Assembly: GCA_947372925.1 (NCBI GenBank)
Contig: CANBVQ010000001.1
Location: forward strand, 54,286-118,285
Direction of reading: 5' to 3'
DNA: 64,000 nucleotides
Origin: Acidimicrobiaceae bacterium
GTDB lineage: Bacteria > Actinomycetota > Acidimicrobiia > Acidimicrobiales > RAAP-2
Part shown: positions 989 to 17,352 of the stretch, piece by piece
Position numbering within the stretch: the stretch's first letter is position 1
How the letters are laid out: each line of letters opens with the position of its first letter
The notes under the pieces: model-generated
Databases searched by the model: none
What the model was told of the DNA's origin: nothing
Seen by the model: the letters and a program-made list of their open reading frames with translations, nothing else
Program-made: the position numbers and the translations under genes

Positions 989-2840
989 CAGGCACACTCC
1001 CCTTCTCTAGACGAGGAACTCCCGTCTCGTGCAGATGATCGTAGAGCGCGTGCGCAACCGTCGTCGGGAGCCAACCAAGCTCCAATAGCGATTCAAGGGA
1101 GAGTGCTCGTATTGCCTTCATCGAACCAAAGGAGTCCATGAGCTTCTTTTGTCGAGCTGGACCGAGCCCTTCAACAGCATCGAGCGACGTACTCACCATC
1201 GAAGCCCCTCTCTTCGTGCGATGAAACGTGATGGCGAAACGGTGGGCCTCATCACGGAGGCGCTGAAGCATGTATAACGCTTCCGAGCCGCGATCGAGCC
1301 GAATAGGAAGCGAGCTTCCAGGTCGATAGAGAAGATCCTCTCGCTTAGCGAGAGCTACCAGCTCGACCGTGCCGGCCAGCCCAAGGCTCTCGACTGCATC
1401 CAGGGCCGCCGACAGTTGAGGCAAGCCTCCGTCAACCACGATTAAGTCTGGTCGCAGGAAGCGAGAGTCTTCATTGCCGGGTTGCAGATAGGTCAACCTG
1501 CGTGCCAGTACCTCTCTCATGGCTCCGGCATCATCATTGCCCAAAACGGTTTTCACGTTGAAATGTCGGTACGAAGATTTCTGAGGGAGACCGTCGACAA
1601 CCACAACCATCGACCCCACGTAATTAGTTCCTTGCAGGTGGCTCATATCGAAGCACTCGATTCGATAAGGAGGTGACGCCAGACCAAGGGAGTTACCAAT
1701 TTCTATGAGTGCCTGTGAGCGTACATTGTGGTCACTTTGGCGCCGCAGTGAGTCACGTTTAAGTACCGTCAGCCCATCTGTCTCACCCAGAGTTAACACC
1801 GATCGCTGCCGATCACCCCTGGGGCCGGAAACTCGTACTGAGCGATCCGCGAGGGATGACAAATACTCCTCCAAAAGAGACGTATCCAAAACGTCCACAT
1901 TCGTAATGATTGCATCTGGAACCGACGCAGCTTCGTAGTGTCCAACCATGAACGTCTCGAGCACATCACTATTCAACGTGTCGAATCCAACATCGAAGAG
2001 TTTGTTAGTACGTCCAACAATCCGGCCGTGCCTGATGAAGAAGCAGCTGACAACAGCACGAGCGTCGGAGCGAGTTACCGTCACCGCGTCGAGATTTGTC
2101 TGCTCGCCAAGAACGACCAACTGCTCTTGAGACGCTTTCTCCAGAGCGAGTAGCGAGTCTCTGGCTCGAGCGGCGGACTCATAGTCTCTGGACTCGGAGG
2201 CTCGAGCCATTTCTTTTTCCAATTTGTCTCGTAACTCGCCTGACTGACCATTGAAGAATTGGATGAAGGTTGAGACAATCTTGTCGTATTCCAACTTGTC
2301 AACTGCGCCCACGCACGGACCGGAACACTTTCCGATGTCGTACAGTAAGCAGGCGCGACCCCTGCGCTCGTGCGCCTGATACTTCGCTGCCGAACAAGTT
2401 CTCAGCGGAGCGATTCTCAGCACTTCATCGAGCATGATCCGAGCACTCTTGACATGCCCAAAAGGGCCGAAGTAGCGAACGCCTCGTTGTTTCGCCGAGC
2501 GCGTCATAAATGGCGTGGGAAATTCCTGTCGCAAATCGACAGCCAAATAGGGGTACGACTTGTCGTCCTTCAGTCTGATATTGAATCGAGGTTGGTATCT
2601 CTTGATCAAATCATTTTCGAGAATGAGCGCCGCTACTTCGGAACCAGTCTCAATCCACTCAACTTCAGTTGCCATTTCCATAAGGGAGATCGTTTTGTTT
2701 GACATCTGGCCCGGTGAACTGAAATAGCTCCCGAGGCGACTCGCAAGGTTCTTGGCCTTGCCAACGTAAATGACCGCCTGAAATTGATCACGGAAGATGT
2801 AGCAGCCGCTTGCCGACGGAATGCCGAGAGGCTTCTCCAT
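981..2840 (-). CDS. uvrC: Excinuclease ABC subunit C
   Basis: GIY-YIG (GCYIF...IYVGKAKNL), UVR domain, RIECFDMSHLQG, PDLIVVDGG, RDEAHRFAITFHR and a C-terminal HhH. Start placed at MEKPLG (2840), just after the uvrA stop. Confidence 0.96.
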   Translation of the reverse strand: MEKPLGIPSASGCYIFRDQFQAVIYVGKAKNLASRLGSYFSSPGQMSNKTISLMEMATEVEWIETGSEVAALILENDLIKRYQPRFNIRLKDDKSYPYLAVDLRQEFPTPFMTRSAKQRGVRYFGPFGHVKSARIMLDEVLRIAPLRTCSAAKYQAHERRGRACLLYDIGKCSGPCVGAVDKLEYDKIVSTFIQFFNGQSGELRDKLEKEMARASESRDYESAARARDSLLALEKASQEQLVVLGEQTNLDAVTVTRSDARAVVSCFFIRHGRIVGRTNKLFDVGFDTLNSDVLETFMVGHYEAASVPDAIITNVDVLDTSLLEEYLSSLADRSVRVSGPRGDRQRSVLTLGETDGLTVLKRDSLRRQSDHNVRSQALIEIGNSLGLASPPYRIECFDMSHLQGTNYVGSMVVVVDGLPQKSSYRHFNVKTVLGNDDAGAMREVLARRLTYLQPGNEDSRFLRPDLIVVDGGLPQLSAALDAVESLGLAGTVELVALAKREDLLYRPGSSLPIRLDRGSEALYMLQRLRDEAHRFAITFHRTKRGASMVSTSLDAVEGLGPARQKKLMDSFGSMKAIRALSLESLLELGWLPTTVAHALYDHLHETGVPRLEKGSVPDE

Positions 2841-2844
2841 GGAA

Positions 2845-5688
2845 CTAGCGCTTCGAAGCCTTGGTCTTAGGTAACACCAATCGCAAAACTTCTCCGGTGG
2901 CTGTTTTGGTCTTGGCCACTTGCTCGGGCGTTCCAACAGCAGTGATTCTGCCACCCCGCTTTCCACCTTCGGGCCCCAAATCAACAATCCAATCGGCCGT
3001 CTTGATTACGTCGAGATTGTGCTCGATCGTCAGCACTGTATTGCCCTGGTCGACCAGACGATGAAGCACTGTCAGCAGACGATCTACGTCCTCGAAATGC
3101 AGACCGGTGGTCGGCTCGTCCAGCACGTAAAGCGTGTGGCCCGTAGCTCGACGCGCCAGTTCTGTGGCCAGCTTCACTCGTTGGGCTTCACCGCCTGAAA
3201 GTGTGGGTGCCGGCTGCCCCAATCTGACGTAACCCAACCCGACGTCAACGAGCGCCTGAATATGTCTGGATATCGCGGGTTGCTTCGAGAAGAACTCCAA
3301 CGCCTCGGCAATCGGCATATTGAGCACATCCGCTATCGACTTCCCACGATAGAGAACTTCGAGCGTCTCCCGGTTGTAGCGACTGCCGTTACAGACATCA
3401 CAGTTCACATAGACATCGGGGAGGAAATGCATCTCAATTTTTATTGTGCCGTCACCCGCACAGTTTTCACAACGTCCACCTTTGACATTGAATGAAAATC
3501 TGCCCTGCAGATAGCCTCGAGTCTTAGCTTCCTGAGTTTCGGAGAACAGCTTCCTAACTTTGTCGAACACTCCGGTATAGGTTGCGGGATTTGACCGTGG
3601 TGTTCGTCCAATGGGCTGTTGATCCACGGCAACAACTTTGTCAAGAAAGTCGATTCCTGTGATTGAAGTGTGGTCGGCTACCTGAACTTTTGCTCGATAG
3701 AAATGTTTTTGAAGTCCGGCCAGGAGAATCTGATTGATCAAGGTCGACTTGCCTGAACCCGACACACCAGTTACGGCAATAAAACGACCAAGTGGAAACT
3801 CGGCATCAATGTTTTGAAGATTATTGGCTCGAGCGCCGATGATTTTAAGAAAACCCGCCTCAACATCTCGTCGAACTTTTGGTATCGCAATACTCTTCTT
3901 GCCCGAGAGATACTGCCCAGTGGACGACTTCGGATTGGCGAGCAGACTCGTTACATCGCCAGCATGCACAATCTCCCCGCCGTGCTCGCCCGCACCGGGA
4001 CCGATGTCTACGACATAGTCGGAAAGTCGAATTGTCTCTTCATCATGCTCGACCACAATGACCGAATTCCCTAAATCGCGGAGTCGTTCCAGGGTTGTGA
4101 TCAGTCTTCGATTGTCCCGCTGGTGGAGGCCAATCGACGGCTCATCAAGGACATAGAGAACACCGACCAGATGCGAACCGATTTGACTTGCTAGGCGTAT
4201 TCGCTGAGCCTCGCCACCGGACAGAGTCGCTGAAGCGCGACTTAACGTTAGGTAGTCCAAACCCACATCGAGAAGGAAGCTCAACCTCTCGTTGATTTCC
4301 TTTATGACCTGAACCGCGATTTTCGCATCACGTTTATTCAATTTTAAGGAATTGAAGAATGCCACCGCTTCGTCAATCGTGAAATTGCTTACTTGGGCGA
4401 TATTCGTTTCGGCAATCAGCACGGCCAGAATCTCCGGCTTTAGTCGTAGACCCTTGCAGCTCCGGCATTCGACCTCGCGCATGTATTGCTCCGCTTGGTC
4501 GCGAGACCAATCACCCTCAGCCTCCTGCCATTGACGCTCCAACCAATGGACGACACCTCTGAATTGCGCCATGAAACTTGCAGAGCGACCATTCTTCTTC
4601 TTGTACTTGTACTCGAGTTTCTCGCCGTCCAGGCCGTGCAGTAGCAGCTCGCGATCTTGGTCTCGCAGTTGGGACCAAGGTGTATTCGCTGAGAAATCAC
4701 CGAATTCGCAAACACTTCTAAGCAGACGATCGAAATATCTGGCTCGATGTCCTCCCCAGGGAGCGATTGCACCGTCGGCAACACTCAAAGATTCGTCCGG
4801 TACGACTAGTTCAGAATCCACCTCAAAACGAGTGCCGAGCCCAGAACACGTACCGCAGGCTCCATATGGCGAGTTGAAAGAGAAATCTCGAGGTGCAAGT
4901 TCGGTGAAACTGATGCCACATTTCGTGCATGCCATCAATTCGGAGAATCGCTGTTCCGGACCGCCGTCGAGGTCGTGAATTACCACGATGCCTTTCGCCA
5001 AACGAAGTGAAGCCTCAACCGATTCAGTAAGGCGCTGACGGATCGTGTTCTTCAAGATCAGTCGGTCGACGACAACTTCAATCACGTGAGTTTCATATCG
5101 AGCGAGCTTGATCTCCTTGCGGTCTGACAGCTCATGGACAGTGCCGTCCACTCTCACACGCGAGAAACCCTGCGCCGCTAAGTCGTCGAGCAGCGTTGAG
5201 TACTCGCCCTTTCGTCCCTCAACAATTGGCGCCAGAACCAAGAACTTTGTGCCCACCTTGCCATCGAGAACCCTGTCAACGATTTGCTGGGGACTCTGCC
5301 GAGATACCTCTAAGCCACACTTCGGACAGTGTGGGACGCCGATGCGGGCATACAGCAGTCGTAGATAGTCCGAAACTTCGGTAATCGTTCCGACTGTTGA
5401 TCGGGGATTCCGGGAAGCGGTCTTTTGGTCAATTGAGATCGCTGGCGAGAGTCCTTCGATGAAGTCCACATCCGGTTTATCCATTTGGCCCAGGAATTGA
5501 CGGGCGTATGCGGAAAGACTTTCGACGTATCGTCGCTGCCCTTCGGCATAAATTGTGTCGAACGCTAGAGAGGACTTACCGGAACCGGACAGTCCTGTGA
5601 AAACCACGAGCTTGTCGCGCGGAATTTCGAGGCTGACATTCTTTAGATTGTGAGCGCGAGCACCTTGGATCCGAATGAGGTCAGCCAT
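2845..5688 (-). CDS. uvrA: Excinuclease ABC subunit A
   Basis: Two ABC ATPase halves ([18 protein letters not shown]), two LSGGEAQR signatures, zinc-finger Cys motifs. Confidence 0.98.
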
Positions 5689-5712
5689 ACACCCGCAGGC
5701 TACCGTCTACTT

Positions 5713-7710
5713 TCAGTCAAACGGCAGGTTCAATTCATCACTGCCAATCCGTTGCAGGCTGTGAATCTCGTCCCGAAGCGCGGCAGCTTCTTCAAAACGC
5801 ATCTCTTCGGCGGCCTCAAGCATTGACTTGGTAAGGCGCTCCACCTCGCGCTCCAATTCCTGATCTGAGAGTTCAAGTCTTCTCGGCGAGTCGGAGCCGG
5901 TTGCCGAACTACCGCTGCGGAGTCGCCCAAGGATGTCCGCCACCGCCTTAGATACGGTCCTGGGAACAATACCGTTCGCTTCGTTGTATGCAATCTGCAC
6001 TGCGCGACGTCGTTCGGTAACCGAAATCGCATCACGCATCGAATCCGTTATTCGGTCGGCGTAGAGGATCGCCTCACCATTCGCATTTCTGGCGGCCCGG
6101 CCAATGGTTTGAATAAGCGCACTGCGCGACCGCAAGAATCCTTCCTTGTCGGCGTCGAGGATTGCGACCAGGGACACTTCGGGTAGGTCGAGACCTTCCC
6201 GAAGGAGATTGATTCCAACTAGAACGTCAAACTCTCCGAGACGGAGTGATCGAAGAATTTCGATTCTTTGGATTGTGTCGATATCCGAGTGCAAATACTG
6301 AATCCTGACTCCAGCCTTTGCAAGAAATGCGGTCAAGTCTTCAGCCATACGCTTCGTTAGCGTGGTGACCAATACGCGCTCACCTCGTGCCACTACTTCC
6401 GCGATACGCGCTTGAAGATCGTCAACCTGATTCTTCGTCGGAATGATTCGGACCGGTGGATCCAGCAGACCGGTTGGGCGGATGACCTGCTCTACTACTT
6501 CGTCGGAAATCTCCAATTCGTAGGGGCCGGGAGTGGCTGATACAAAGACAGTCTGCGGGATGATGTCAATGAACTCTTCAAAGTTGAGAGGCCGATTGTC
6601 GCGGGCGCTCGGCAATCGGAAACCATGATTGACCAGTGTGTCCTTACGGGACTTGTCGCCGGCAAACTGACCGCGAACCTGCGGTACGGCTACGTGAGAT
6701 TCGTCGATTACAACGAAGTAATCCTTCGGGAAATAGTCCAAAAGCGTGAATGGTCTTTCACCTGGCGACCTACCGTCCAGATGGGCCGAGTAGTTCTCAA
6801 CTCCAGCACAGGTTCCAGTCTCCTCAAGCATTTCAAGGTCGTATTCCGTGCGCGACCGCAACCTTTGCATCTCCAAAAGCTTGCCCTCGCGTTCAAGTTC
6901 CACGAGTCGTTCAGCCAACTCAGCTCGGATTCTATGCATGGCCTGTGTGAGCGTTTCGCTCGATGATGCGTAGTGGGTCGCCGCAAAGAGTGTTACCTCA
7001 GTAACGGCACCCTTTGATTCCATGGTTAAAGGATTGAAAAACGTAATGGCATCAATCTCGTCCCCAAAGAGTGAGAGTCGAATCGCCTCTTGGTCGTACG
7101 CGGGCTGGATCTCGATCGTGTCGCCTCGCACGCGGAAACTGCCACGCTCCACAACCAGATCGTTGCGGTGGTATTGCATATCAACGAAACGACGTAGCAG
7201 TTCACGCTGATCGATCGTCATGCCGACCTCGAGAAGCAACATGTGATTCTTGTATTCGATCGGATTCCCGAGTCCGTAGATACACGAGACTGAAGCAACC
7301 ACGATGGTGTCGTGCCTCGTGAGTAACGCACTTGTCGCGGCGTGGCGGAGCCGATCGATCTCCTCGTTGATTGAACTGTCCTTCTCGATGTAGGTGTCTG
7401 AACTCGGAATATACGCTTCGGGCTGGTAGTAGTCGTAGTAGGAGACGAAAAACTCAACGCGATTGTTTGGCATCATTTCTCGGAGTTCCGAAGCCAACTG
7501 GGCGGCCAATGATTTGTTGGGTTCAAGGATTAATGCGGGTCGCTGAACCTGCTCGATTAGCCAGGCGATTGTGGCAGTCTTACCACTGCCCGTAATTCCC
7601 TCGAGCGTTTGGTATCGCAAACCACCATTGATACCTTCCGCGAGCTTGGCAATTGCCGTTGGCTGATCGCCACTGGGCTGAAAGGGCGACTCAACCAGAA
7701 ATTCAGTCAA
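5713..7710 (-). CDS. uvrB: Excinuclease ABC subunit B
   Basis: [21 protein letters not shown] beta-hairpin, [18 protein letters not shown] and a C-terminal UVR domain. TTG at 7710 overlaps the coaE stop. Confidence 0.97.
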
Positions 7711-8299
7711 CGGACATTCCTCGTTCTCGCAGTAGGGCTCGGATTCGTTCTTCGAGCGCTTCGATCGAATCATTATTGGGAATCACAACATCGACGATGG
7801 CTGAACGGTCGCTGTTTGAAATTTGGCTCCTAATGCGATTACGCGCGTCCTCGTCGCTAAACCCTCGATGCTGGATTAGTCGAGAAACTGCCACCTCTGG
7901 TTCGACTTCGGTGGCCCATACTTCGCTCAGTCGAAAAACAGTGCGGTGTTCCGGGCGGAAGAGAGGTACCGCGACAGCGTAATGAGAGTCCTTGCTCTCA
8001 TCTAGAGCTCGAAGCACTTCCATTCCAATGGCACCGTGGGTAATCACGTTGAGGCGCCGAAGAGCCGTTGGATTGGGAAAAGTGATGGCTGCTAGAAATT
8101 TTCGGTCAATCCGACCTGCTTCGTCGGTCACCGCCCGACCAAAGGCATCAACCAACGCTTGCCACGCTGGTTGTCCGGGCTCAACGATTTCGCGCGCAAT
8201 GACATCTGTATCAATCACACGGACTCCCGCCCGTTCAAGGACGGAGGTGACCGTGGACTTGCCTGAGCCGATTCCGCCGGCGATTCCTATTTGCAACAC
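7703..8299 (-). CDS. coaE: Dephospho-CoA kinase
   Basis: [32 protein letters not shown]; position immediately upstream of uvrB. Confidence 0.93.
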
Positions 8300-8356: not shown

Positions 8357-11300
8357 GTGAAACTAAGGCTCCCAGGATCTTTTGATGTGGCCAGACTGCG
8401 GCGTTTCCGCACCTGGGACACATTTTTATTCGCCCTGATTGCCTATGTGCCCTTCTTTGGTAACAATCCGGGGAAGGTATCTGCCGACACTAAGGCCTAT
8501 CTCTACCTCGATCCAAGCCACCTGCTCGCAACTGCCACCTCTATGTGGAACGCCGATCAAGGCTTCGGCATGGTGACGCACCAAAACATTGGCTACCTCT
8601 TTCCGATGGGGCCATTCTTCTGGCTGACTCACACGATTGGTATTCCGACATGGATAGCGCAGCGTTTCTGGATGGGCTCACTGCTTTTCTTAGCGGGACT
8701 CGGCGTGCGAAAGGCCGCTCAAGAACTGGGCCTCAGCAGAGTGGCATCGTGGAGTGCGGCGCTCCCCTATGTCTTCACGCCATTCATCTTGGTCAACATC
8801 GGAAGAACCTCCGCCATTTTGATGCCTTGGGCCGGTTTGGGCTGGCTACTCCTTTTTGCCATTAGATCCGCACGCTTTGGTGGATGGAAAAACCCCGCCC
8901 GATTCGCGCTCGTAGTGGCCCTCGTCGGTGGAGTTAATGCGACGTCCATCCTCTTGGTGGGTCTCGCGCCAGCAGTGTGGCTGCTATTCGCCGCCACCAC
9001 CAGGGAGATTTCTTGGCGCTCACTCGCTTCCACGGTTTCGCGCATCGGACTTCTATGCAGCTCGGTATCACTTTGGTGGATCGCCGGCCTTTGGGCCGAA
9101 GGCAAATTCGGTATCAATATCTTGCAGTACACCGAAACGATTCCTACGGTCGCCAGTACTTCGAGCAGTTCGGAAGTTTTCCGAGGTTTGGGCTATTGGT
9201 ACTTCTACGGATGGGATCACTCTCAAGCGTGGACTAGCTCATCCGTTGGCTACACCACTGGCCAATTCGCACCCATTTTCAGTTTGATTCTTCCGACCGC
9301 GGCGGTCATCGCCGCCATGTTTGTCAAGTGGCGCTATCGGACATTTTCCGTACTGCTCGCTTTCCTCGGCGTCGTAATTGCAGTTGGTGCGTACCCATAC
9401 AACTCACCTACGCCGGCAGGCTCGGCGCTGAAGTGGTTTGGAGAAAACACCACCGTGGGTCTCGCAATGCGTTCGACTAATCGCGTGGTGCCAATCATGG
9501 TGTTGGCTCTAGGACTACTACTTGGGTCCAGTGTTGATGCGCTGAGAAGCCGCCATCCACGACGTATCTTGCCCGTGTTCGGCCTGATCTTCCTCGCCGC
9601 AACCATCGGATTAACTCCGCTATTCAATGGAACAGCGCTCGCTACGAATCTCAGCTCGTCGCAGAAACTGCCCGCGTACGTTGAGAATGCTGCCAAAGAT
9701 CTGAACTCGGGCGACACATCCACTGGCGTACTCGGCCTCCCTGGCCTCGACTTCGGCTACTACCGATGGGGTGCCTACGTGGACTCTGCTTGGCCTGGAT
9801 TGCTCAAACGGCCCTACGTGACGAGTCAAATTACGCTCCAGGGGCAACCGGCAAGCGTGAATCTCGTTCGATCTCTCGATAGTCCCATTCAGGACTTAAT
9901 AGCCCTGCCGAGGAGCATCGCTCCAATTGCAAGGTTGCTCGGGACTGGTGATGTGCTTTTCCAATTCGATACCCAGTTCGATCGGTTTAGCGGTCCAGAA
10001 CCTTGGTATCTGTGGCGCTTATCGCAGTCACCGAGTTTGGGACTCGTATTCAAAAAGGCCTACGGTCCCGTTGTTACGGATCAAGTCGGCGACGGCCCTT
10101 TCATCAACGAGAGCAACCTCGCTCTGCCTCAAGGATTCAAGTGGCCTCGATCGCTAGCCATCTATGGCGTTCAAGGTGTCCGACAACTCGTCAGAATTGA
10201 GTCAAGTGCGTCTCCTGCAATAGTTGCCGGGGACGGCGAAGGCTTGGTCAATATGGCGGGCCTTGGAATTCTCCCGGAGGATCGGGCTATTTTCTACGAC
10301 GGAGCACTGACCGCTTCGCAACTCGAACGACTGACAGCAAACGCAACTGCCAGTCTGTATGTGACGGACTCCAATCAGCGGCGCCTAAATAGTTACGGCG
10401 TACTTCACTCAAGCCCTGGCTATGTTCAGCAGGCCGGAGAGACACCGATTGTTAAAAGCCCGTCGCAGCAGACGTTGCTGGCGTACCCCGACACAGTTTC
10501 AGGGGCTCAGACTGTTGCCGTATTGGGCAATATCAAATCAGTCCAAGCTTCTTCTTATGGCAATCCAATAGCCAACAATCCCGAAGTGCAGGCCTACTAC
10601 TCGCTTGATGGCCTGGTCGACACAGCGTGGCAAACCTCTGCTTTCGGAAAAGCACCCGGCCAATTTATTCAGATTGACATGGGGCACCGCCTTAGCTTCA
10701 ATCGACTCCGACTCACCCAAGCACAGTCGTCCACGATTAACCGATGGATCACGCAGGTGACGATAACCGTCGACGGAAAATCGCTCGGTAAATTCAGCCT
10801 TTCAAAGTCGACGAGGAGTCGGCGAGGTGGTGTCATCAAACTACCCAAGACTTCAGGTTCGGTTATTCGCATCACCATCAATCAGACGTCCCATGATGAT
10901 GGAAATCTCGCTGGACAGTCTGGGGTTGGTTTCGCTGAGATTTCAATTCCCGGGCTTCCCGCAGTAACTCACAGTTTGATGATGCCAACAAGTCTTTTAA
11001 ACAGAGCCGGCAATGCGGCTCTGGTGAATGATCTCCGTTTTGTCATGACACGTGCTCGAGTGGCAACAACGCCACCAAGGCTTGATCCGGAGCTGACTAT
11101 CGACAGGATGTTTGAACTACCAGCAGGCCGAATGTTCACTATTCGCGGCACCACTTCAATCCAACCCGCTGCATCTGACGCAACCATCAGCCGCCTCCTT
11201 GGCATCGGTGGTTCAAGTAACGGTCAAATTGTGCGATCGTCAAGCTCGACCCGTCTGGTTGGATCATTAACGAATGGCCCATGGGCTGCATTTGACGGTG

Positions 11301-13492
11301 ATCAGACAACGAGCTGGATGCCTGGATTCCAGACGGGGCCCAACACCTGGCTCGAAGGTGGAACTAAGGACTCGACCACCATCTCGCGAGCCAACATCAC
11401 ATTTGTGAATGATGGACTTCACATGGTTCCGACCAGACTCCTTCTCACAGCCGATGGTGGTGCTGGCGGCTCTTACAGCTTCAACACGCACATGAAGATT
11501 GCAAAGAACGCAGCCAGGGGTGCTACCCAAACTCTGAAGGTTTCATTCCCTGCGATGACGGGACGCTCGTTCCGCTTGAGTGTTGATCAGTTTCTGGCTG
11601 TGGGCGTCAAGGACAGAATTTCCGGGGCACTCAACCATCCTCCGATTGCAATTACAGAATGGAAGCTCGGAACCATAAAGCCTGAATCAATCTCTTCTAC
11701 TTTCCGCTCAACTTGCCGAAGCGATCTGATTTCCATCGACGGAACAGGGATTCCTGTGTACGTGCATGGTTCCACCGCTGACGCATTGGCGCAACACCAG
11801 ATTGCGTTCTCTAGCTGCGGAGAGAAATTCTCTCTCTCAGCCGGTACGCATCACCTGCGCGCGGCGTTTGGTGTTGGCACGGGAATCAATATTGACAACA
11901 TTTCACTCGCCTCACTTGCCGACTCCGCCAGTCCAGCGGTAACGCCAATACTGAATCTGAAGAGTCACTGGACAAATCGCTGGAGCATGGAAGCTCGAAT
12001 TCCGGCGAACGCCGCGGGTCAGTATGTCGCTGTTGGTCAGAGCTTCGGCCCAGGATGGACCGCCCGTCTGGATGGAGCAGATCTTGGAGCACCGCTTCTA
12101 ATCGATGGCGCTTCAATGGGATGGCTCCTTCCCTCAAAGATGAGTGGAGCCCAGAACCTAGTAGTGACCTGGACGCCACAAGGGACAGTAAATCTCGCAT
12201 TGCTGGCTTCTCTTTTAGGCCTCCTCCTCTGCCTCGGAATTTCGACTGGAAGGGCTCCTAAGAGTTCCACCTGGATGAGCGATGCGCGTCCCACGGTTCT
12301 TCGTGATCCATCTGTTAGGCGTCCCGCACTGGTCTTTGGCGTGAGTCTCTTAGTTGGCCTCTGTGTTTCGTGGTGGTTTATTCCTTTGAGCCTGCTTGCG
12401 GCTGTGTATCTCTTCTCAAGCCCTTCATCTACCAAATCAATCCCTCGGTTCATCACGGTGCTCTTAGTAACCGCCGGCGGTTGTACTGTCGCGGCAAATC
12501 AGATGCATCTCGTTCGTTCGATTGAATGGCCGAATCACGTTCCGCTAGCCAATGGGTTGACGTGGATTGCGCTGGCTCTTTGGGTAGTGGTGATTATCGC
12601 TACCGGACCCAAGCTCCAGGCGTCAACGGCACAGCCAGTTGGCGAAGACGTGGTTGAAACCGAGCGCCGCCGAGGCCTCAATGTTCCCGTTAGCGCCGAA
12701 TCACTTACAACCGACGAACGCGATCTACTTCCTCTGGTGGTAGCACCTCGCGGGGCTCTACGTTCGCTTGCTCTTCTCCGTGCCTTATTGGTGAAGAGGC
12801 GTGATCCCGATCTATATCGACGGATTGTCCTCACCGACACCATGAATCAGGTAGTCGGCAAGAGCCCTCTGTTCAACAGGAGGATCCTCGAGATTGCTGA
12901 CTTTGATACCTCGTACGCTGCGGGCTTTGCAGAGCGTGGCGCTCGGGTCACATCAATGCGTCGAGAACTGCCTCAGCCCAAGCGTGGCATCGCGAAGATT
13001 GCCAGTCAAAATGCAGACCCCGTGGCACCAGAGGTGGCGTACACCCCGCTGCACATTCCGTCGGGCGATAAGTCATTCGATTTAGTGTTCGCCACGAATG
13101 TCCTCAGTAGTGTTGAGGAGCCTGAGGCTTTGATCAACGAACTAGTCCGTGTTACCCGACCCGGCGGCTCCATTTACCTCCAAAACACCACGTGGTTCTC
13201 GCCATGGGGCGGCAGGGAGACTTCGCCGTGGCATCTAATTTCCGGCAATTTCGCACGACGCGCGTACACGCGCAAGCACGGACACCTTCCCCGCAATGTG
13301 TATTCTCAAAACTTCTTCCGTATCCGCATCAGCGAGGTAATGGAATCGCTCCGTGACGATCCTCGGATAGTGGTTGTCAGCGCTCATCCGCGTTATCTAC
13401 CGGAGAGTTTTGGTTGGTTGCTCCGTATTCCCTTGGTGAACGAACTGCTCACGTTGAGTCTGGTTGTAACCCTCGAAAGAACTGCCGATTAG
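8357..13492 (+). CDS. AftD-family (DUF3367) alpha-(1->3)-arabinofuranosyltransferase-like GT-C membrane protein with two discoidin/CBM32-like domains, fused to a C-terminal Rv0224c/MtrP-like class I methyltransferase domain
   Basis: N-terminal multi-TM region with ADTKAYLYLDP, HQNIGYLFPMGPF and WIAQRFW (AftD-like). Discoidin-like motifs YSLDGLVDTAW and AAFDGDQTTSW. A second TM bundle, then a ~250-aa domain with FDLVFATNV, ELVRVTRPGG, PWGGRET and RKHGHLPRNVY. Confidence 0.85.
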   Translation: MKLRLPGSFDVARLRRFRTWDTFLFALIAYVPFFGNNPGKVSADTKAYLYLDPSHLLATATSMWNADQGFGMVTHQNIGYLFPMGPFFWLTHTIGIPTWIAQRFWMGSLLFLAGLGVRKAAQELGLSRVASWSAALPYVFTPFILVNIGRTSAILMPWAGLGWLLLFAIRSARFGGWKNPARFALVVALVGGVNATSILLVGLAPAVWLLFAATTREISWRSLASTVSRIGLLCSSVSLWWIAGLWAEGKFGINILQYTETIPTVASTSSSSEVFRGLGYWYFYGWDHSQAWTSSSVGYTTGQFAPIFSLILPTAAVIAAMFVKWRYRTFSVLLAFLGVVIAVGAYPYNSPTPAGSALKWFGENTTVGLAMRSTNRVVPIMVLALGLLLGSSVDALRSRHPRRILPVFGLIFLAATIGLTPLFNGTALATNLSSSQKLPAYVENAAKDLNSGDTSTGVLGLPGLDFGYYRWGAYVDSAWPGLLKRPYVTSQITLQGQPASVNLVRSLDSPIQDLIALPRSIAPIARLLGTGDVLFQFDTQFDRFSGPEPWYLWRLSQSPSLGLVFKKAYGPVVTDQVGDGPFINESNLALPQGFKWPRSLAIYGVQGVRQLVRIESSASPAIVAGDGEGLVNMAGLGILPEDRAIFYDGALTASQLERLTANATASLYVTDSNQRRLNSYGVLHSSPGYVQQAGETPIVKSPSQQTLLAYPDTVSGAQTVAVLGNIKSVQASSYGNPIANNPEVQAYYSLDGLVDTAWQTSAFGKAPGQFIQIDMGHRLSFNRLRLTQAQSSTINRWITQVTITVDGKSLGKFSLSKSTRSRRGGVIKLPKTSGSVIRITINQTSHDDGNLAGQSGVGFAEISIPGLPAVTHSLMMPTSLLNRAGNAALVNDLRFVMTRARVATTPPRLDPELTIDRMFELPAGRMFTIRGTTSIQPAASDATISRLLGIGGSSNGQIVRSSSSTRLVGSLTNGPWAAFDGDQTTSWMPGFQTGPNTWLEGGTKDSTTISRANITFVNDGLHMVPTRLLLTADGGAGGSYSFNTHMKIAKNAARGATQTLKVSFPAMTGRSFRLSVDQFLAVGVKDRISGALNHPPIAITEWKLGTIKPESISSTFRSTCRSDLISIDGTGIPVYVHGSTADALAQHQIAFSSCGEKFSLSAGTHHLRAAFGVGTGINIDNISLASLADSASPAVTPILNLKSHWTNRWSMEARIPANAAGQYVAVGQSFGPGWTARLDGADLGAPLLIDGASMGWLLPSKMSGAQNLVVTWTPQGTVNLALLASLLGLLLCLGISTGRAPKSSTWMSDARPTVLRDPSVRRPALVFGVSLLVGLCVSWWFIPLSLLAAVYLFSSPSSTKSIPRFITVLLVTAGGCTVAANQMHLVRSIEWPNHVPLANGLTWIALALWVVVIIATGPKLQASTAQPVGEDVVETERRRGLNVPVSAESLTTDERDLLPLVVAPRGALRSLALLRALLVKRRDPDLYRRIVLTDTMNQVVGKSPLFNRRILEIADFDTSYAAGFAERGARVTSMRRELPQPKRGIAKIASQNADPVAPEVAYTPLHIPSGDKSFDLVFATNVLSSVEEPEALINELVRVTRPGGSIYLQNTTWFSPWGGRETSPWHLISGNFARRAYTRKHGHLPRNVYSQNFFRIRISEVMESLRDDPRIVVVSAHPRYLPESFGWLLRIPLVNELLTLSLVVTLERTAD

Positions 13493-14646
13493 CGCTTTTC
13501 GCTGAGTAGCTGAAAGAGCTTCAAGGCAGCACTGTCCCATGTGAGCGACTGCGCATACTTGAGTGCTCCCTCACGAAGCGACCCAAGCAGCTCTTCGTCC
13601 TGCAGAACATTCGAGATAGTTGTGGCTACTTGCGCCTCATCGACCAGCAGTCCGCTGTGACCATCCATCACGGCGTCACGATGGCCGGCAATGTCTACGG
13701 CCACCGAGGGTGTGCCGCAGGCGGCCGCTTCAGTGAGAGACATCCCCCACCCTTCACGTAACGACATTGAAGAAACCAGCCAGGCGCGCTGATACAGGGC
13801 AAGCAGTTCTCCATCAGAGATTCTGCCCGCCAGCGTTATCCACTCCTGGGCGCCGTGGGCCGCAATCATTTCCTCCAGCTCCGTTCGAAGGTAGCCCTCG
13901 CCAACGATTACGAAACGCGCTGTCGGTACTTTCTTGCGGACTTCAATAAAGGAGTTGATTAAAAGGTCGAAACGCTTCACGGGCACCAACCGACCCACTG
14001 CGACGATCAATGGCGTCGGCGAACGGTCATCCCCGGGAACAAAAGAAGGGGAAATGCCCGGTGGCACTACTGCCACGCGCCGCAAGTGCATGCGATCCCC
14101 AATCTCCTCTTGAGAAGAGTTGGAGAGCGTCGCAATCGTCGTGCCTCGATAGAACGGTGGTGCCAGACGATGCTCAATGAGCCATCCAAGACGCCCTAGA
14201 AGGCCCGGCAAGGTCATCTGCCACATTTCCCCGTGTACGTGGTGGAGAAGCACCAGACGGCGGCCACGGTGCCACAGAGGAGAGAGGAAAGGCATCCCAT
14301 TCCAGATTTCCACCACTCCGTCAGGCCGGTGGGAGCGCCGACTGAAAAGTCCATTCAAAATGACACTCGGGAAGACTTGGTATCGCCCACCCCGACGATT
14401 TGCGACGTAGCCGTTCCGCTCGACTCTCGCAGCACGACCTGGAACGGCTGAAGTGCGAGACTCAATAGCAACTCCCGCAGCCGCCCATCGTTTCAAGATC
14501 TCGTCGGCGTGTAGTTCGGATCCCCCTGCTTCCGGGTCATCAAGATCTCTCCAGGCAACAACATTGACCGAAGTAATACCGCTGGTCTGCACCAGGGTCT
14601 TGAGCGATTCCTGGTCGCTAGGCATTGGAATCTCCGTTGATGCCAA
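13489..14646 (-). CDS. Glycosyltransferase family 4 (GT-B), Rv0225-like
   Basis: WRDLDDPEAGGSE N-terminus, VGRLVPVKRFD and EGWGMSLTEAAACGTP (GT4 EX7E motif). The true start may be ATG at 14625. Confidence 0.88.
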   Translation of the reverse strand: MASTEIPMPSDQESLKTLVQTSGITSVNVVAWRDLDDPEAGGSELHADEILKRWAAAGVAIESRTSAVPGRAARVERNGYVANRRGGRYQVFPSVILNGLFSRRSHRPDGVVEIWNGMPFLSPLWHRGRRLVLLHHVHGEMWQMTLPGLLGRLGWLIEHRLAPPFYRGTTIATLSNSSQEEIGDRMHLRRVAVVPPGISPSFVPGDDRSPTPLIVAVGRLVPVKRFDLLINSFIEVRKKVPTARFVIVGEGYLRTELEEMIAAHGAQEWITLAGRISDGELLALYQRAWLVSSMSLREGWGMSLTEAAACGTPSVAVDIAGHRDAVMDGHSGLLVDEAQVATTISNVLQDEELLGSLREGALKYAQSLTWDSAALKLFQLLSEKR

Positions 14647-15874
14647 TCGGGCGCAAAGTGGCTAGGAGAAGACCCAGGAAGACCACCATCTGGAGGATGA
14701 GATCGCGATGCACTGTTTCCGCAATGGCGCCACCGGCTTGAGCGAGGTAGAGCGCTCCCCCCACTGTGCTGCAGGCCAGCCAGAGCGTCGGCCACCGTCG
14801 ACCAGAACCGAGGAGATACACGGAAAGCAACGTGCTTCCTCCTAGAAATACCATCGCCAAGATCAAGCTTGTCATCGACCCGTACTCCGTGGCGTAGCGA
14901 GACCCAAAGACGAGCGTAAGGAGCCTTTCGGGTGCAAGTTCGGAAGCAATGAGAAGCAGAGCGACCGGGATAAGCAGCAGGCCACCGGCGATTGTCAGCT
15001 GACGGTATGCATCTCGTCCTCGTCGATCGGCAATTGCCGTCTCGGGTAGTAAGAAGTTGCCAAGAATGATCGCCCCATAGACGATTGTCTTCGCCACTTG
15101 TGAGATTGCCGAGTACGCACCCGCAGCGCTGGAGCTATATCGGCCGATCAGAAACACATCGATGAACTGGAGTGTTGCCAGCAATGCGAGTGTCGCCAAT
15201 GCAATCAGGAGATCAGTGGTGATTCCTGTGTGCTCGAGCGCCTGTTCGTTGCGCGCCACATCTCGCACCCGCACGAGCCGTCGAGCGTGCCAACGAGCAA
15301 ATCCAATGGCCACCAAAAGGCCCGCGACGATTCCGGTCACACCGAATGGGCTTCCCAGAACCATGAACACGGTCCGCATGGCACCTTCTAGAAGGAAGTT
15401 GGAAGCGAGCGCCATGTAACGCTGTCGAGACTGGAGAAGCGCTCTGTCAACGTTCAGCAAGGCCCAGGAGATGGCAGCCAGGGCGTTGACCCATACGGCA
15501 AGCCACGAACGATGCCCCATCCACTGAGCCAAGAGGAAAGAGCCAGCCAGCGCGATAAGTGAAAAGATCAGCGCCCATCGAATGAGTCGTTGATTGAGCC
15601 GACGCTGCCAGCGCGCCATAAGAGATTCGTCATCCCTGACGAGGTAGTACGTCGCACGCCTCACCACCGCCACCGAGAGCGCTGAACCAGGAAGCGCGAC
15701 AATGAAGAAGATGCCAACCATCTGGGAGTAGGCACCGTACTCGGTCGGATTTAGAAGGCGAGCTATGAGAACGCTTACGCCAAGATTAAGAATGTTTGCT
15801 ACTAGTCCGGCGAAAGCAACTACGACGGCGCCACTGAGAAGTGCGTTTAGCCGTACCGCTATCCCCCGCGCCAT
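14618..15874 (-). CDS. Wzx-like oligosaccharide flippase / polysaccharide biosynthesis protein
   Basis: About 12 hydrophobic segments; NLGVSVLIARLLNPTEYGAY and DVFLIGRYSSSAAGAYSAISQVAK match the Wzx/MATE-like flippase pattern; glycosyltransferase neighbours. Confidence 0.75.
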   Translation of the reverse strand: MARGIAVRLNALLSGAVVVAFAGLVANILNLGVSVLIARLLNPTEYGAYSQMVGIFFIVALPGSALSVAVVRRATYYLVRDDESLMARWQRRLNQRLIRWALIFSLIALAGSFLLAQWMGHRSWLAVWVNALAAISWALLNVDRALLQSRQRYMALASNFLLEGAMRTVFMVLGSPFGVTGIVAGLLVAIGFARWHARRLVRVRDVARNEQALEHTGITTDLLIALATLALLATLQFIDVFLIGRYSSSAAGAYSAISQVAKTIVYGAIILGNFLLPETAIADRRGRDAYRQLTIAGGLLLIPVALLLIASELAPERLLTLVFGSRYATEYGSMTSLILAMVFLGGSTLLSVYLLGSGRRWPTLWLACSTVGGALYLAQAGGAIAETVHRDLILQMVVFLGLLLATLRPIGINGDSNA

Positions 15875-15882
15875 TGGCGTAG

Positions 15883-17352
15883 CTAAGCCTGAGGAGTGCG
15901 CGCTGGCAGAATCGGGGCGTCCCTACCGGTGCCGCCCTTGCCCGTCTCGTGATATTCCTCTTCGACGTTCACATTCCAAACATCGTGGTTTCCACCGTAA
16001 ATGTTGTCCACTGTCAATATTGCAGTGAACATTGAGTGATCCTGATTGTTGTACTTGTGCATGCCGTTACGTCCGATTAAGTGGACGTTGCTGGCTTCTG
16101 TCTCGAGATATGTTGCGATCGTCTTGACGTTCGCCTGATAGTGGCTGTCGTAGTAGGGGTAAGCCTTGGGCATTCGGAACACGTAGCCCATCTCGACGTC
16201 GGCAGCCTTCGCCAGTCCGAGGTACTCCAACTCGCGCTTGCCCTGTTCAATGAGGTCCTCATCGCGGGCATTCCACAACTCGTCGCCCTCAAACACGAAG
16301 AATTCTAGGCCCAAGCACGTGCGACCTTCTTTGACCAGAAACGGAGACCAAGAACCGAAGTTTTGAATACGGCCTACCTTGACTTCCTCAGCGTGAATGT
16401 AAATCCAATTGTCCGGGAAGGCCAGTTCCTCTGGAATCACAAGAGCGACTGTCAGGAAGTCGCGGTAGTGCAGACCGTGACCGGCTGTCAAAATTTCGCT
16501 CGGTAGTGCTGGCTTGAAGGCATCAACCAATTGGGCCATTGGCATTGTGGATATGACGTGTGACGCTGGCTGAAAACTCGCAGAACCGTCACTATTTACA
16601 ACATCAACTCCGGTCGCCTTGCCACCTTCAACTCTGATACCGACGACTTTTGTCTTCAGGTGAACTTGGCCACCCTTGGCAGCGATTAACTCGGCACACT
16701 TCTCCCACATCATGCCCGGACCAAACTTGGGGTACTGAAACTCCTCAATGAGTGAAGTGATCTCAGTTTGCCCACGCTTGGGCAGCAGGGCATTCAAGAT
16801 TGCATTACTGAGCGAGAGACTCTTAACGCGCTGAGCCGCCCAGTCGGCAGGCATCTCCTTAACGGGAACTCCCCATACCTTCTGGGTATAGGTCTCAAAG
16901 AACCGTCGATAGAGACGCCATCCGAATCGAGCTACCAGCCAGCCTTCGTAGTTGGTCTGATCTTTTGGTGGGCGCACTCTCGCCCACACGTAGCTCAAGA
17001 CGCACAGCACGGCCTCGAAAGGGCCGAGATTCTTTAGTGCGTTACCGGCTTTCAGGGGGTAGTCGTAGTACTTGCCGTCGTAGAAAATTCGACTCATGCG
17101 CGGGCGCAACAGAAAGTCCTCGTCGGGCAGAATCTCATGCCACAACTCTTCTACTTCCTTGACCTTGGTGAAGAACCTATGGCCGCCAATGTCAAATCTC
17201 CAGCCATCGCGCTCTACGGTGCGACTGATACCACCGACAACGCTGTCACCTTCGTAAACGATGACCGAGCCACCGCGCTTGACGATTTCGTATGCGGCGG
17301 TGAGACCGGCGGGACCACCGCCGATAACAACGATGGGGTTTGCTTCACTCAT
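15883..17352 (-). CDS. NAD(P)/FAD-dependent oxidoreductase, UDP-galactopyranose-mutase-like / HemY-fold family
   Basis: GGGPAGL dinucleotide fold, VGGISRT, FDIGGHRFF, KAYPYYD and GRNGMHKYNNQDHSM. Confidence 0.75.
   Translation of the reverse strand: MSEANPIVVIGGGPAGLTAAYEIVKRGGSVIVYEGDSVVGGISRTVERDGWRFDIGGHRFFTKVKEVEELWHEILPDEDFLLRPRMSRIFYDGKYYDYPLKAGNALKNLGPFEAVLCVLSYVWARVRPPKDQTNYEGWLVARFGWRLYRRFFETYTQKVWGVPVKEMPADWAAQRVKSLSLSNAILNALLPKRGQTEITSLIEEFQYPKFGPGMMWEKCAELIAAKGGQVHLKTKVVGIRVEGGKATGVDVVNSDGSASFQPASHVISTMPMAQLVDAFKPALPSEILTAGHGLHYRDFLTVALVIPEELAFPDNWIYIHAEEVKVGRIQNFGSWSPFLVKEGRTCLGLEFFVFEGDELWNARDEDLIEQGKRELEYLGLAKAADVEMGYVFRMPKAYPYYDSHYQANVKTIATYLETEASNVHLIGRNGMHKYNNQDHSMFTAILTVDNIYGGNHDVWNVNVEEEYHETGKGGTGRDAPILPARTPQA

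What the first reader, a model, noticed from the sequence alone, without database searches (positions are those of the whole stretch)
8357..13492. AftD-family arabinofuranosyltransferase fused in one ORF to an Rv0224c/MtrP-like methyltransferase domain
Seen: one uninterrupted 1711-codon ORF. After the AftD-like TM + discoidin + TM architecture, a linker (~12600-12740) leads into a ~250-aa domain with RSLALL..RDPDLYR, FDLVFATNV, ELVRVTRPGG, PWGGRET, RKHGHLPRNVY and HPRYLP..GWLLRIP. Established: these motifs resemble mycobacterial Rv0224c / corynebacterial MtrP, a separate gene of the Rv0224c-Rv0228/aftD cell-envelope locus linked to trehalose-mycolate transport; AftD itself is about 1400 aa with no such domain. 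Inference: the fusion is Rosetta-stone evidence that the MtrP family physically works with AftD-type GT-C enzymes, here in a lineage not known to make mycolates. That points to an older, mycolate-independent role in glycan assembly.
Basis: partly seen in the sequence, partly recalled or inferred. Interest (0 to 1): 0.85.

Follow-up and report, generated by a model that had tools for sequence, protein, structure and literature searches.

The report
AftD glycosyltransferase fused to dead MtrP domain
A freshwater actinobacterium that makes no mycolic acids carries one real gene joining a mycobacterial-type cell-wall arabinosyltransferase (AftD) to a copy of the MtrP/Rv0224c methyltransferase that has lost its cofactor-binding residues. 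This suggests that MtrP-type proteins are physical partners of AftD-type enzymes and can work without methyl transfer.

Summary
Window 8357-13492 (+) is one uninterrupted 1711-codon ORF made of an AftD-family GT-C core, two discoidin/CBM modules, five more TM helices, a ~48-aa linker and a ~247-aa class I methyltransferase-fold domain. The architecture recurs in 25 protein clusters from independent assemblies, so it is not an assembly artefact.

The C-terminal domain is the reciprocal best hit of the mycobacterial Rv0224c/MtrP orthologue. The adjacent GT4 gene is the reciprocal best hit of Rv0225.

Three additions:
1. The fusion is rare. It occurs in a subset of one Acidimicrobiia family, apparently from a single origin.
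2. In this genus the domain has lost motif I glycines, the motif II acidic residue, the invariant E-H and the GGH histidine. It is still as conserved as the rest of the protein, so it is probably a pseudo-methyltransferase. Sister fusions keep all motifs.
3. MtrP-like genes sit next to aftD and/or Rv0225-like GT4 genes across Actinomycetota, and in other genomes are fused to the GT4 instead.

Best reading: a tethered cytoplasmic adaptor or regulatory module of an ancient AftD–MtrP–GT4 glycan-assembly unit. It is a new variant of known kinds and bears on the recently described TmaT–AftD node.

The parts
8357..13492 (+). Whole fused gene: AftD-family GT-C plus MtrP-derived domain, 1711 codons including the TAG stop at 13490-13492
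8447..10441 (+). GT-C_AftD membrane domain (residues 31-695), with the conserved first-loop Asp (D44 in SADTK, nt 8480-8500)
   Evidence: Pfam PF11847, E 4e-73. 17 of 18 columns invariant in 28 other AftD proteins are kept.
10541..10888 (+). Periplasmic F5/8 type C (discoidin) carbohydrate-binding module, residues 729-844
11288..11578 (+). Second discoidin-like (NedA-like galactose-binding) module, residues 978-1074
   Evidence: just above the Pfam cut-off (28.4 bits versus 27.8)
12185..12604 (+). C-terminal five-helix TM region (residues ~1277-1416; TM12-16 in AftD numbering). It returns the chain to the cytoplasm.
   Evidence: Hydropathy. AF2 helices at 1323-1337, 1339-1354, 1358-1382 and 1396-1416. 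11+5 TM layout of AftD from PMC8698533 and 10.1101/2019.12.22.885152.
12605..12748 (+). Disordered cytoplasmic linker (residues 1417-1464) holding the clade-conserved motif ERRRGLNVP (nt 12662-12688)
   Evidence: pLDDT below 50. Motif conserved in the genus-g1 fused proteins but not in P0025.
12749..13489 (+). MtrP/Rv0224c-derived class I methyltransferase-fold domain (residues 1465-1711), degenerate at the cofactor and catalytic positions
12884..12913 (+). Degenerate motif I: ILEIADFDTS where relatives have VLDVGGGPGY
12947..12967 (+). End of strand beta-2: VTSMRRE. The family's invariant acidic residue (E/D) is replaced by Arg.
13088..13114 (+). FATNVLSSV where all relatives have SSNVLEHV (invariant E-H lost)
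13199..13234 (+). Family signature SPWGGRETSPWH retained, except that the His of GGHE is Arg
13489..14646 (-). Rv0225-like GT4 glycosyltransferase, convergent with the fused gene, stop codons overlapping
   Evidence: Pfam. 31% identity, E 2e-50 to the M. senegalense Rv0225 orthologue. Reciprocal best hits. Adjacent in all fused genomes examined. Sequence at the overlap.

Best explanation
This is one genuine gene. Its N-terminal ~1416 residues are an intact AftD-type GT-C arabinofuranosyltransferase: a membrane GT-C core, periplasmic carbohydrate-binding modules and a C-terminal five-helix bundle. The genome also encodes the donor pathway for decaprenyl-phospho-arabinose. After the last helix the chain is in the cytoplasm, where a ~48-residue flexible linker tethers a domain descended from the MtrP/Rv0224c methyltransferase family. 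The fusion arose once, from neighbouring aftD and mtrP genes, in one Acidimicrobiia family, with an intact methyltransferase. In the window's genus the domain then lost the residues that bind S-adenosylmethionine and the family's invariant E-H and His, but stayed under purifying selection. It therefore most likely works as a non-catalytic module. The inferred role is a tethered cytoplasmic adaptor or regulator that sits at the cytoplasmic face of AftD, next to the TM13-16 bundle that is a known allosteric site in mycobacterial AftD, and/or recruits the neighbouring Rv0225-like GT4. Shown here: gene integrity, family assignments, topology, motif loss, conservation, phylogeny and gene linkage. 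Inferred: the adaptor/regulator role and any physical contact.
For: - **Real fusion:** 25 independent clusters and five whole genomes carry it.
- **MtrP family:** reciprocal best hits with the syntenic mycobacterial orthologue. Class I MTase fold, pLDDT above 90 over the domain, with MTase structures as top Foldseek hits, including the Trm112-partnered Hvo_0019.
- **Module conservation:** the adjacent GT4 is the reciprocal best hit of Rv0225. mtrP-like genes are adjacent to aftD and/or the GT4 in many Acidimicrobiia and other Actinomycetota. GT4::MtrP fusions exist elsewhere.
- **Dead enzyme:** all 28 genus-g1 sequences lack the motif I glycines, the motif II acidic residue and the E-H. All but one (P0015) also lack the GGH histidine. 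All of these are invariant in about 45 stand-alone, mycobacterial and other fused homologues.
- **Single origin, then loss:** the g1 clade has 100/100 support, sits on a long stem (1.19 substitutions per site) and is nested beside intact fused sequences.
- **Still selected:** MT-domain identity across the clade (45-91%) is equal to or higher than that of the periplasmic and C-terminal TM regions.
- **Cytoplasmic location:** five TM helices follow the periplasmic domain.
- **AftD part intact, donor available:** 17 of 18 invariant columns are kept. A DPPR synthase-DprE1-DprE2 operon is present.
- **Literature:** the cytoplasmic face of TM13-16 is an allosteric ACP-binding site in M. abscessus AftD (10.1101/2019.12.22.885152). 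MtrP, TmaT and the AftD-like MmpA act at one step (PMC8698533). TmaT and AftD form a 1:1 complex (10.64898/2026.07.31.741936).
Against: - No direct evidence of contact. The AF2 model of residues 1290-1711 has a disordered linker, and no inter-domain confidence could be read.
- A natural GT4::MtrP fusion folded with pTM of only 0.55, so no confident docking was seen.
- 30 of 41 genomes of the same family have AftD without any MtrP-like domain, so AftD does not need it.
- One genus mate (G139) has an in-frame stop between the two parts, so covalent linkage is dispensable.
- Loss of canonical motifs does not strictly prove loss of SAM binding.
- Raw reads were not examined.
Confidence: 0.6

Rival explanations
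1. The fused domain is still an active methyltransferase that binds SAM in a non-canonical way, or uses another methyl donor. It would methylate a substrate of the AftD pathway, such as a polyprenyl-linked sugar, the glycan, or AftD or the GT4 itself.
For: The class I fold is confidently predicted. Much of the C-terminal half, including ELVRVTRPGG and ETSPWH, is conserved. Sister fusions with intact motifs (P0025, G123, G703, G704) are presumably active.
Against: Four separate invariant features are replaced together: the GxGxG glycines become A-D-F, the beta-2 acidic residue becomes Arg, E-H becomes S-S, and the GGH histidine becomes Arg. These changes coincide with a long stem branch. The Pfam methyltransferase models match only the C-terminal half.
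Confidence: 0.1
2. The domain is a decaying, functionless relic of a once-useful fusion, on its way to being lost.
For: Catalytic motifs are lost. One genus mate has an in-frame stop upstream of the domain. Six of eleven sampled genus mates have no MtrP-like domain at all.
Against: The domain stays full-length and open in 28 sequences that have diverged to 41% identity. Its conservation equals or exceeds that of the periplasmic and TM12-16 regions. The replaced positions are themselves conserved within the clade (MRR, TNVLSSV). Even in G139 the downstream frame is intact, with an ATG two codons after the stop.
Confidence: 0.1
3. The long ORF is an artefact: two adjacent genes (aftD and mtrP) joined by a sequencing or assembly error at the linker.
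For: Adjacent, same-strand aftD-mtrP arrangements exist elsewhere in the class. G139 has a stop at the junction. Reads were not checked.
Against: The uninterrupted architecture is seen in 25 clusters from four data sources and in several genomes, over 41-100% identity. The junction has no error-prone repeat.
Confidence: 0.02
4. The C-terminal domain is just a generic Methyltransf_11 domain and has no specific relationship to Rv0224c/MtrP.
For: Pfam and NCBIfam give only generic methyltransferase hits. Identity to the mycobacterial protein is only 28-33%.
Against: There is a single full-length hit in each of four Mycobacterium genomes at E 1e-26 to 2e-30, against about 1e-5 for the next methyltransferase, and the hit is reciprocal. 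The family-specific C-terminal signature is shared (GG-H-E...H, PRY-P). The neighbouring Rv0225-like GT4 is also shared.
Confidence: 0.03

Closest known systems
AftD (Rv0236c / Cg3161; M. abscessus AftD, PDB 6W98, 6WBX, 6WBY)
   Same: GT-C_AftD domain, periplasmic discoidin/CBM modules, five C-terminal TM helices and conserved polar residues. The DPA donor pathway is present in the genome.
   Different: About 300 extra C-terminal residues (linker plus MtrP-derived domain). Identity to mycobacterial AftD is low: phmmer E 1e-37 over 1290 residues. The organism has no mycolate-locus partners: tblastn at E <= 0.01 finds no MmpA or PgfA homologue, and TmaT finds only weak acyltransferase-3 hits (E about 3e-4). 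The sugar linkage it makes is unknown.
MtrP (NCgl2764/Cg3168; Rv0224c), putative methyltransferase required for acetyl-trehalose-monocorynomycolate synthesis and transport
   Same: Homologous over the full length and reciprocal best hit. Same class I fold, same C-terminal family signature and same neighbouring Rv0225-type GT4.
   Different: Covalently attached to AftD instead of being a free soluble protein. SAM-binding and invariant E-H/His residues are lost in this genus. No trehalose-mycolate pathway is expected here, because mycolates are confined to Mycobacteriales (established knowledge).
TmaT-AftD regulatory node of mycobacteria (cryo-EM 1:1 complex, bioRxiv 10.64898/2026.07.31.741936; predicted in 10.64898/2026.07.15.738315)
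   Same: AftD acts as the hub of a multi-protein envelope-assembly complex whose other members come from the Rv0224c-Rv0228 locus.
   Different: Those studies do not place MtrP in the complex: one predicts a Trm112-like partner for it and the other does not mention it. Here the partner tethered to AftD is MtrP-like, and there is no TmaT orthologue.
Acyl carrier protein bound to the cytoplasmic face of the TM13-16 bundle of M. abscessus AftD (allosteric regulation)
   Same: A cytoplasmic protein module positioned at the C-terminal helical bundle of AftD. In the window's protein the MtrP-like domain is attached directly after TM16.
   Different: Tethered in cis rather than bound in trans, and an unrelated fold. 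No evidence yet that it contacts the bundle or affects the active site.
Rv0225 / MSMEG_0311 essential polar GT4 of unknown function
   Same: The window's neighbouring GT4 is its reciprocal best hit and keeps the adjacency to the MtrP-family gene.
   Different: Convergent rather than divergent orientation. In five other Acidimicrobiia genomes this GT4 is itself fused to an intact MtrP-like domain.

Membership tests
AftD family (Pfam PF11847 GT-C_AftD / DUF3367) | N-terminal GT-C_AftD domain above the curated cut-off | tested here: met
   246.8 bits versus a cut-off of 26, residues 31-695
AftD family (Pfam PF11847 GT-C_AftD / DUF3367) | Large periplasmic region with carbohydrate-binding (discoidin/CBM) modules between the TM blocks, alignable to solved AftD | tested here: met
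   F5/8 type C 729-844 and a second module 978-1074. 6W98 aligns to residues 20-1309.
AftD family (Pfam PF11847 GT-C_AftD / DUF3367) | 11 + 5 TM topology with a cytoplasmic C-terminus | tested here: inconclusive
   Five helices after the periplasmic domain are seen by hydropathy and AF2. The crude hydropathy scan resolved only 7 of the expected 11 N-terminal helices.
AftD family (Pfam PF11847 GT-C_AftD / DUF3367) | Conserved polar and catalytic residues of the GT-C core | tested here: met
   17 of 18 columns invariant in 28 other AftD proteins are retained, including D44, E260, E273, R276, R328 and R372
AftD family (Pfam PF11847 GT-C_AftD / DUF3367) | Decaprenyl-phospho-arabinose donor available | tested here: met
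   G000 C3:18654-21660 encodes DPPR synthase (323 bits, cut-off 207), DprE1 (515, cut-off 500) and DprE2 (239, just under cut-off 250)
AftD family (Pfam PF11847 GT-C_AftD / DUF3367) | Arabinofuranosyl transfer to a cell-wall glycan | not testable with these tools
   Needs biochemistry
MtrP / Rv0224c family | Orthology to Rv0224c/NCgl2764 (reciprocal best hit with a syntenically defined orthologue) | tested here: met
   The M. tuberculosis and C. glutamicum proteins themselves were not available, so M. senegalense and three other Mycobacterium orthologues defined by locus synteny were used.
MtrP / Rv0224c family | Class I (Rossmann-like) methyltransferase fold | tested here: met
   AF2 pLDDT above 90 over the domain. 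Foldseek hits to class I MTases at E down to 4e-9.
MtrP / Rv0224c family | Family-specific C-terminal signature (WGGHE..P.H, PRY.P) and adjacency to the Rv0225-type GT4 | tested here: met
   Signature kept except that the first His is Arg. GT4 adjacency and reciprocal best hits.
MtrP / Rv0224c family | SAM-binding motifs (motif I GxGxG, acidic residue at the end of beta-2) and the invariant E-H | tested here: not met
   ILEIADFDTS, VTSMRRE and NVLSSV. It is therefore a descendant of the family, not a credible working SAM-dependent methyltransferase.
MtrP / Rv0224c family | Requirement for acetylation and transport of trehalose monomycolate with TmaT and MmpA | tested here: not met
   tblastn at E <= 0.01 finds no MmpA or PgfA homologue in the 96%-complete genome. 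TmaT finds only weak acyltransferase-3 hits (E about 3e-4). The function itself is not testable here.

The most novel reading that the evidence does not exclude
MtrP-family proteins may be primarily cytoplasmic adaptor subunits, whose catalysis is dispensable. They would bridge an Rv0225-type GT4 to AftD/MmpA-type GT-C membrane proteins in an ancient actinobacterial glycan-assembly complex. Mycobacteriales would then have co-opted this complex into the TmaT-AftD node that couples arabinogalactan completion to mycolate export. The two alternative fusions (AftD::MtrP and GT4::MtrP) and the naturally 'dead' version in this genus would be the evolutionary footprints of that three-way complex.
Probability: 0.3. 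Interest if true: 0.8.

Novelty: new variant of a known kind. Interest (0 to 1): 0.62.

Why it matters
MtrP (Rv0224c) is essential in M. tuberculosis. In C. glutamicum it is needed, together with TmaT and the AftD-like MmpA, for acetylation and export of trehalose mycolates, yet its substrate and partners are unknown (PMC8698533, PMC10171966). Two 2026 preprints place AftD and TmaT in one physical complex but leave MtrP outside it.

The natural AftD::MtrP fusion, a second natural fusion of MtrP to the Rv0225-type GT4, and widespread gene adjacency in bacteria without mycolates together give a concrete hypothesis: MtrP docks on the cytoplasmic side of AftD-type proteins and links them to Rv0225. 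The lineage in which the fused domain has lost every cofactor-binding residue but is still conserved suggests that the essential role may be structural or regulatory rather than methyl transfer. That can be tested by motif-mutant complementation in C. glutamicum or M. smegmatis.

It also shows that the 'mycolate-transport locus' is built on an older arabinan/glycan-assembly module.

Tried and rejected
- **Homology of window neighbours to MmpA/Rv0226c:** neither the 418-aa membrane protein nor the PMT_2 GT-C shows any similarity. MmpA and PgfA find nothing in the genome, and TmaT finds only weak acyltransferase-3 hits.
- **Trm112-like (UPF0434) activator proposed for MtrP:** absent from the window's genome at E <= 0.01. 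Across 24 related genomes its presence does not track MtrP status, so no inference was drawn.
- **Profile search with alignment A1 at phylum level:** the model unintentionally included the AftD part and only two candidates per genome were scored. It was used only for architecture and adjacency, not for frequencies.
- **AF2 on a natural GT4::MtrP fusion, to look for domain docking:** pTM 0.55 with a disordered linker and a shallow alignment, so uninformative.
- **Locating the M. abscessus D474 equivalent by PDB alignment of the middle region:** no hit for that region alone. A family alignment of invariant columns was used instead.
- **Apparent 1131-aa 'long' MtrP frame in G706:** the upstream part is GC-rich junk, so the gene is stand-alone.
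- **Papers:** the MtrP paper (PMC7196642) and the published AftD paper (PMC7263364) are not held. The AftD preprint and later papers that cite them were used.
- **Literature search for the fusion:** nothing found.
Full report
**1. The observation**

Window 8357-13492 (+) is a single 1711-codon ORF with a GTG start and no internal stop.

- Pfam places GT-C_AftD at residues 31-695 (E 4e-73), an F5/8 type C module at 729-844 and a second discoidin-like module near 978-1074. It gives only a partial Methyltransf_11 match at 1560-1607 (profile positions 47-94 of 95). NCBIfam gives only generic methyltransferase hits far below cut-off.
- The solved M. abscessus AftD (6W98, 1413 aa) aligns to residues 20-1309 and has nothing matching the last ~400 residues.
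- The junction DNA has normal complexity.
- The architecture is not an assembly artefact. A search restricted to long proteins found 25 clusters (1631-1779 aa, PF11847 + PF00754 + PF08241) from JGI, ENA, NCBI and Logan, with C-domain identity from 100% to 41%. Whole genomes of relatives carry the same open frame.

**2. Is the C-terminal domain MtrP/Rv0224c?**

No curated model exists for that family, so I built the test from synteny.

- An AftD fragment read from the PDB alignment retrieved named Mycobacterium genomes.
- In four of them the window's domain has exactly one strong hit (E 1e-26 to 2e-30, 30-33% identity over nearly the full length; next best about 1e-5). The hit is a ~260-aa frame 17-27 kb from aftD.
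- In M. senegalense this gene lies in the order aldehyde dehydrogenase, methyltransferase, GT4, 632-aa membrane protein without Pfam, PorA-family (PgfA), acyltransferase_3. That is the Rv0223c-Rv0228 order known from M. tuberculosis (established knowledge; locus described in PMC7775120 and PMC8698533).
- Pairwise: 28% identity over 245 residues, E 8e-30.
- In reverse, the mycobacterial protein's best hit in the window's genome is window 12833-13444 (E 4e-24; next 1e-6).
- The gene next to the fusion, a GT4 at 13489-14646 (-), is the reciprocal best hit of the Rv0225 orthologue (E 2e-50 pairwise; 1e-44 and 2e-47 in the genome searches, next best 1e-14 and 7e-17).
- An AF2 model of residues 1290-1711 (mean pLDDT 84; above 90 over the domain) has a class I methyltransferase fold. 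Foldseek returns small-molecule methyltransferases, including the Trm112-partnered Hvo_0019.

The family assignment is therefore supported.

**3. Topology**

After the periplasmic region (residues ~423-1276) there are five helices: 1277-1295, 1323-1337, 1339-1354, 1358-1382 and 1396-1416. This matches the 11 + 5 TM plan of AftD. The linker (1417-1464, pLDDT below 50) and the MT-like domain are therefore cytoplasmic and are attached directly to TM16. In M. abscessus AftD the cytoplasmic face of the TM13-16 bundle binds acyl carrier protein, and disturbing it is transmitted to the periplasmic active site (10.1101/2019.12.22.885152).

**4. The fused domain is degenerate in this genus**

In an alignment of fused, stand-alone and mycobacterial homologues, four features are invariant everywhere else and replaced in the window and its genus clade:

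| Feature | Relatives | Window |
|---|---|---|
| Motif I | VLDVGGGPGY | ILEIADFDTS |
| End of beta-2 | acidic residue (E/D) | Arg (VTSMRRE) |
| Invariant E-H | SNVLEHV | TNVLSSV |
| GGH histidine | GGHE | GGRE |

- All 28 genus-clade sequences lack the motif I glycines, the acidic residue and the E-H. All but P0015 also lack the GGH histidine.
- ELVRVTRPGG, ETSPWH and PRYLP are kept.
- Fused proteins of other genera of the same family (P0025, G123, G703, G704) keep every motif.
- In a maximum-likelihood tree the degenerate clade is monophyletic (100/100), sits on a long stem (1.19 substitutions per site) and is sister to intact fused sequences. All fused sequences form one clan relative to stand-alone ones, which is consistent with a single fusion followed by loss of catalysis.
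- The domain is not decaying. Its identity across the clade equals or exceeds that of the periplasmic and TM12-16 regions.
- One genus mate (G139) has an in-frame stop in the linker with an ATG two codons later.

**5. Distribution**

- In 301 Acidimicrobiia genomes, 32 have an MtrP-like domain (E <= 1e-15). Fused frames occur only in the window's family.
- In 41 genomes of that family (36 genera), 38 have AftD. Only 5 have the fusion, 6 have a stand-alone or GT4-fused MtrP-like gene, and 30 have none.
- Seventeen other Acidimicrobiia AftD homologues match only the AftD part of a fusion-wide profile (open frames 1400-1580 aa).
- In the 1.84-billion-protein representative library only 5 of the best 150 hits are frames over 1600 aa.
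- Public names are generic ('DUF3367 domain-containing', 'arabinofuranosyltransferase family protein'), and the sources are freshwater metagenomes.
- No paper describing the fusion was found.

**6. Linkage beyond the fusion**

- In Acidimicrobiia, MtrP-like genes are frequently next to an AftD gene and/or an Rv0225-like GT4.
- Elsewhere in the phylum, of about 12 genomes where both MtrP-like and AftD hits were located, most have them adjacent or within 25 kb.
- In five genomes from four families an intact MtrP-like domain lies in one open frame with the GT4. Representative proteins with Glyco_transf_4 + Glycos_transf_1 + Methyltransf_11 confirm this second architecture.
- The MtrP family is thus covalently joined to either of its two conserved neighbours in different lineages.

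**7. The AftD half and its context**

- 17 of 18 columns invariant in 28 other AftD proteins are retained.
- The genome (1.49 Mb, 96% complete) has a DPPR synthase-DprE1-DprE2 operon, so an arabinofuranose donor is available.
- tblastn at E <= 0.01 finds no MmpA or PgfA homologue. TmaT finds only weak acyltransferase-3 hits (E about 3e-4).

**8. Interpretation**

- Shown: the gene is real, it is AftD plus an MtrP-derived domain, the domain is cytoplasmic and conserved, and it has been stripped of its cofactor-binding residues.
- Inferred: it acts as a tethered adaptor or regulator at AftD's cytoplasmic face and/or recruits the GT4.
- Literature context: delta-mtrP, delta-tmaT and delta-mmpA phenocopy each other in C. 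glutamicum, and MmpA resembles the AftD membrane domain (PMC8698533). AftD and TmaT form a 1:1 complex needed for both TMM transport and arabinogalactan ligation (10.64898/2026.07.31.741936). A proteome-wide prediction links MtrP to a Trm112-like protein (10.64898/2026.07.15.738315). Rv0225/MSMEG_0311 is an essential polar GT4 of unknown role (10.1101/2023.09.11.557293).
- None of these papers connects MtrP physically to AftD or Rv0225. The fusions do.
- AF2 gave no confident docking, and the Trm112 comparison was uninformative.

**9. Verdict**

This is a new variant of known families. Interest is moderate to high, because it turns the open question of what MtrP does into specific interaction and catalytic-mutant experiments.

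Earlier notes of this scan reached similar readings on this genome and another one. I treated them as leads and re-derived the points above independently.

Noticed in passing
L108, L112, L119, L158, L159 (genomes G156, G152, G243, G702, G700); proteins P0187, P0190, P0214, P0233, P0242: An intact MtrP-like domain lies in one open frame with an upstream Rv0225-like GT4 (618-739-aa frames, 60-90-aa linker). This is a second, more widespread fusion architecture. In G700 it sits directly upstream of an AftD gene.
   Followed up: partly
L096 (genome G139, same genus): A single in-frame stop codon separates AftD from the degenerate MT-like domain, with an ATG two codons downstream. This is either a secondary gene fission or an error.
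   Followed up: partly
L116 (genome G290): The MtrP-like domain is followed, in the same open frame, by a second class I methyltransferase-like domain (VEIGSYRGRS...DGAHGY).
   Followed up: no
window 12662-12688: The motif ERRRGLNVP in the otherwise disordered linker is conserved in the fused proteins of the window's genus but not in the intact-motif fusion P0025. It may be a short docking motif.
   Followed up: no
G000 contig C3:18654-22815 (outside the window): Operon of decaprenyl-phosphate phosphoribosyltransferase, DprE1 and DprE2, preceded by a glycosyltransferase-like gene. This is a complete decaprenyl-phospho-arabinose pathway in a 1.49-Mb Acidimicrobiia genome.
   Followed up: partly
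window 15883-17352 (-): 489-aa flavoprotein matching NCBIfam NF005548 ('hypothetical protein', 777 bits), with only weak N-terminal similarity to UDP-galactopyranose mutase (E 1e-7). It lies between the unknown membrane protein and a PMT_2 GT-C.
   Followed up: partly
window 14618-15874 (-): 418-aa predicted membrane protein with no Pfam or NCBIfam match and no similarity to MmpA/Rv0226c.
   Followed up: partly
family f1 genomes G684, G692, G700: Two AftD paralogue types exist in the family. One matches PF11847 at E about 1e-198 and lies downstream of stand-alone or GT4-fused mtrP. The window's type matches at E about 1e-80.
   Followed up: no
P0030/P0031 (396 aa): A 396-aa 'methyltransferase domain-containing protein' whose C-terminal 150 residues are 69% identical to the window's domain, with a different N-terminal part. 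Its architecture was not resolved.
   Followed up: no
window 143-8299 (-): Housekeeping block rapZ, uvrC, uvrA, uvrB, coaE, transcribed divergently from the fused gene. Only about 57 bp separates coaE from the GTG start.
   Followed up: no
G000 whole genome: No Trm112/UPF0434-like gene at E <= 0.01, although most related genomes have one. Its presence does not correlate with MtrP status.
   Followed up: yes
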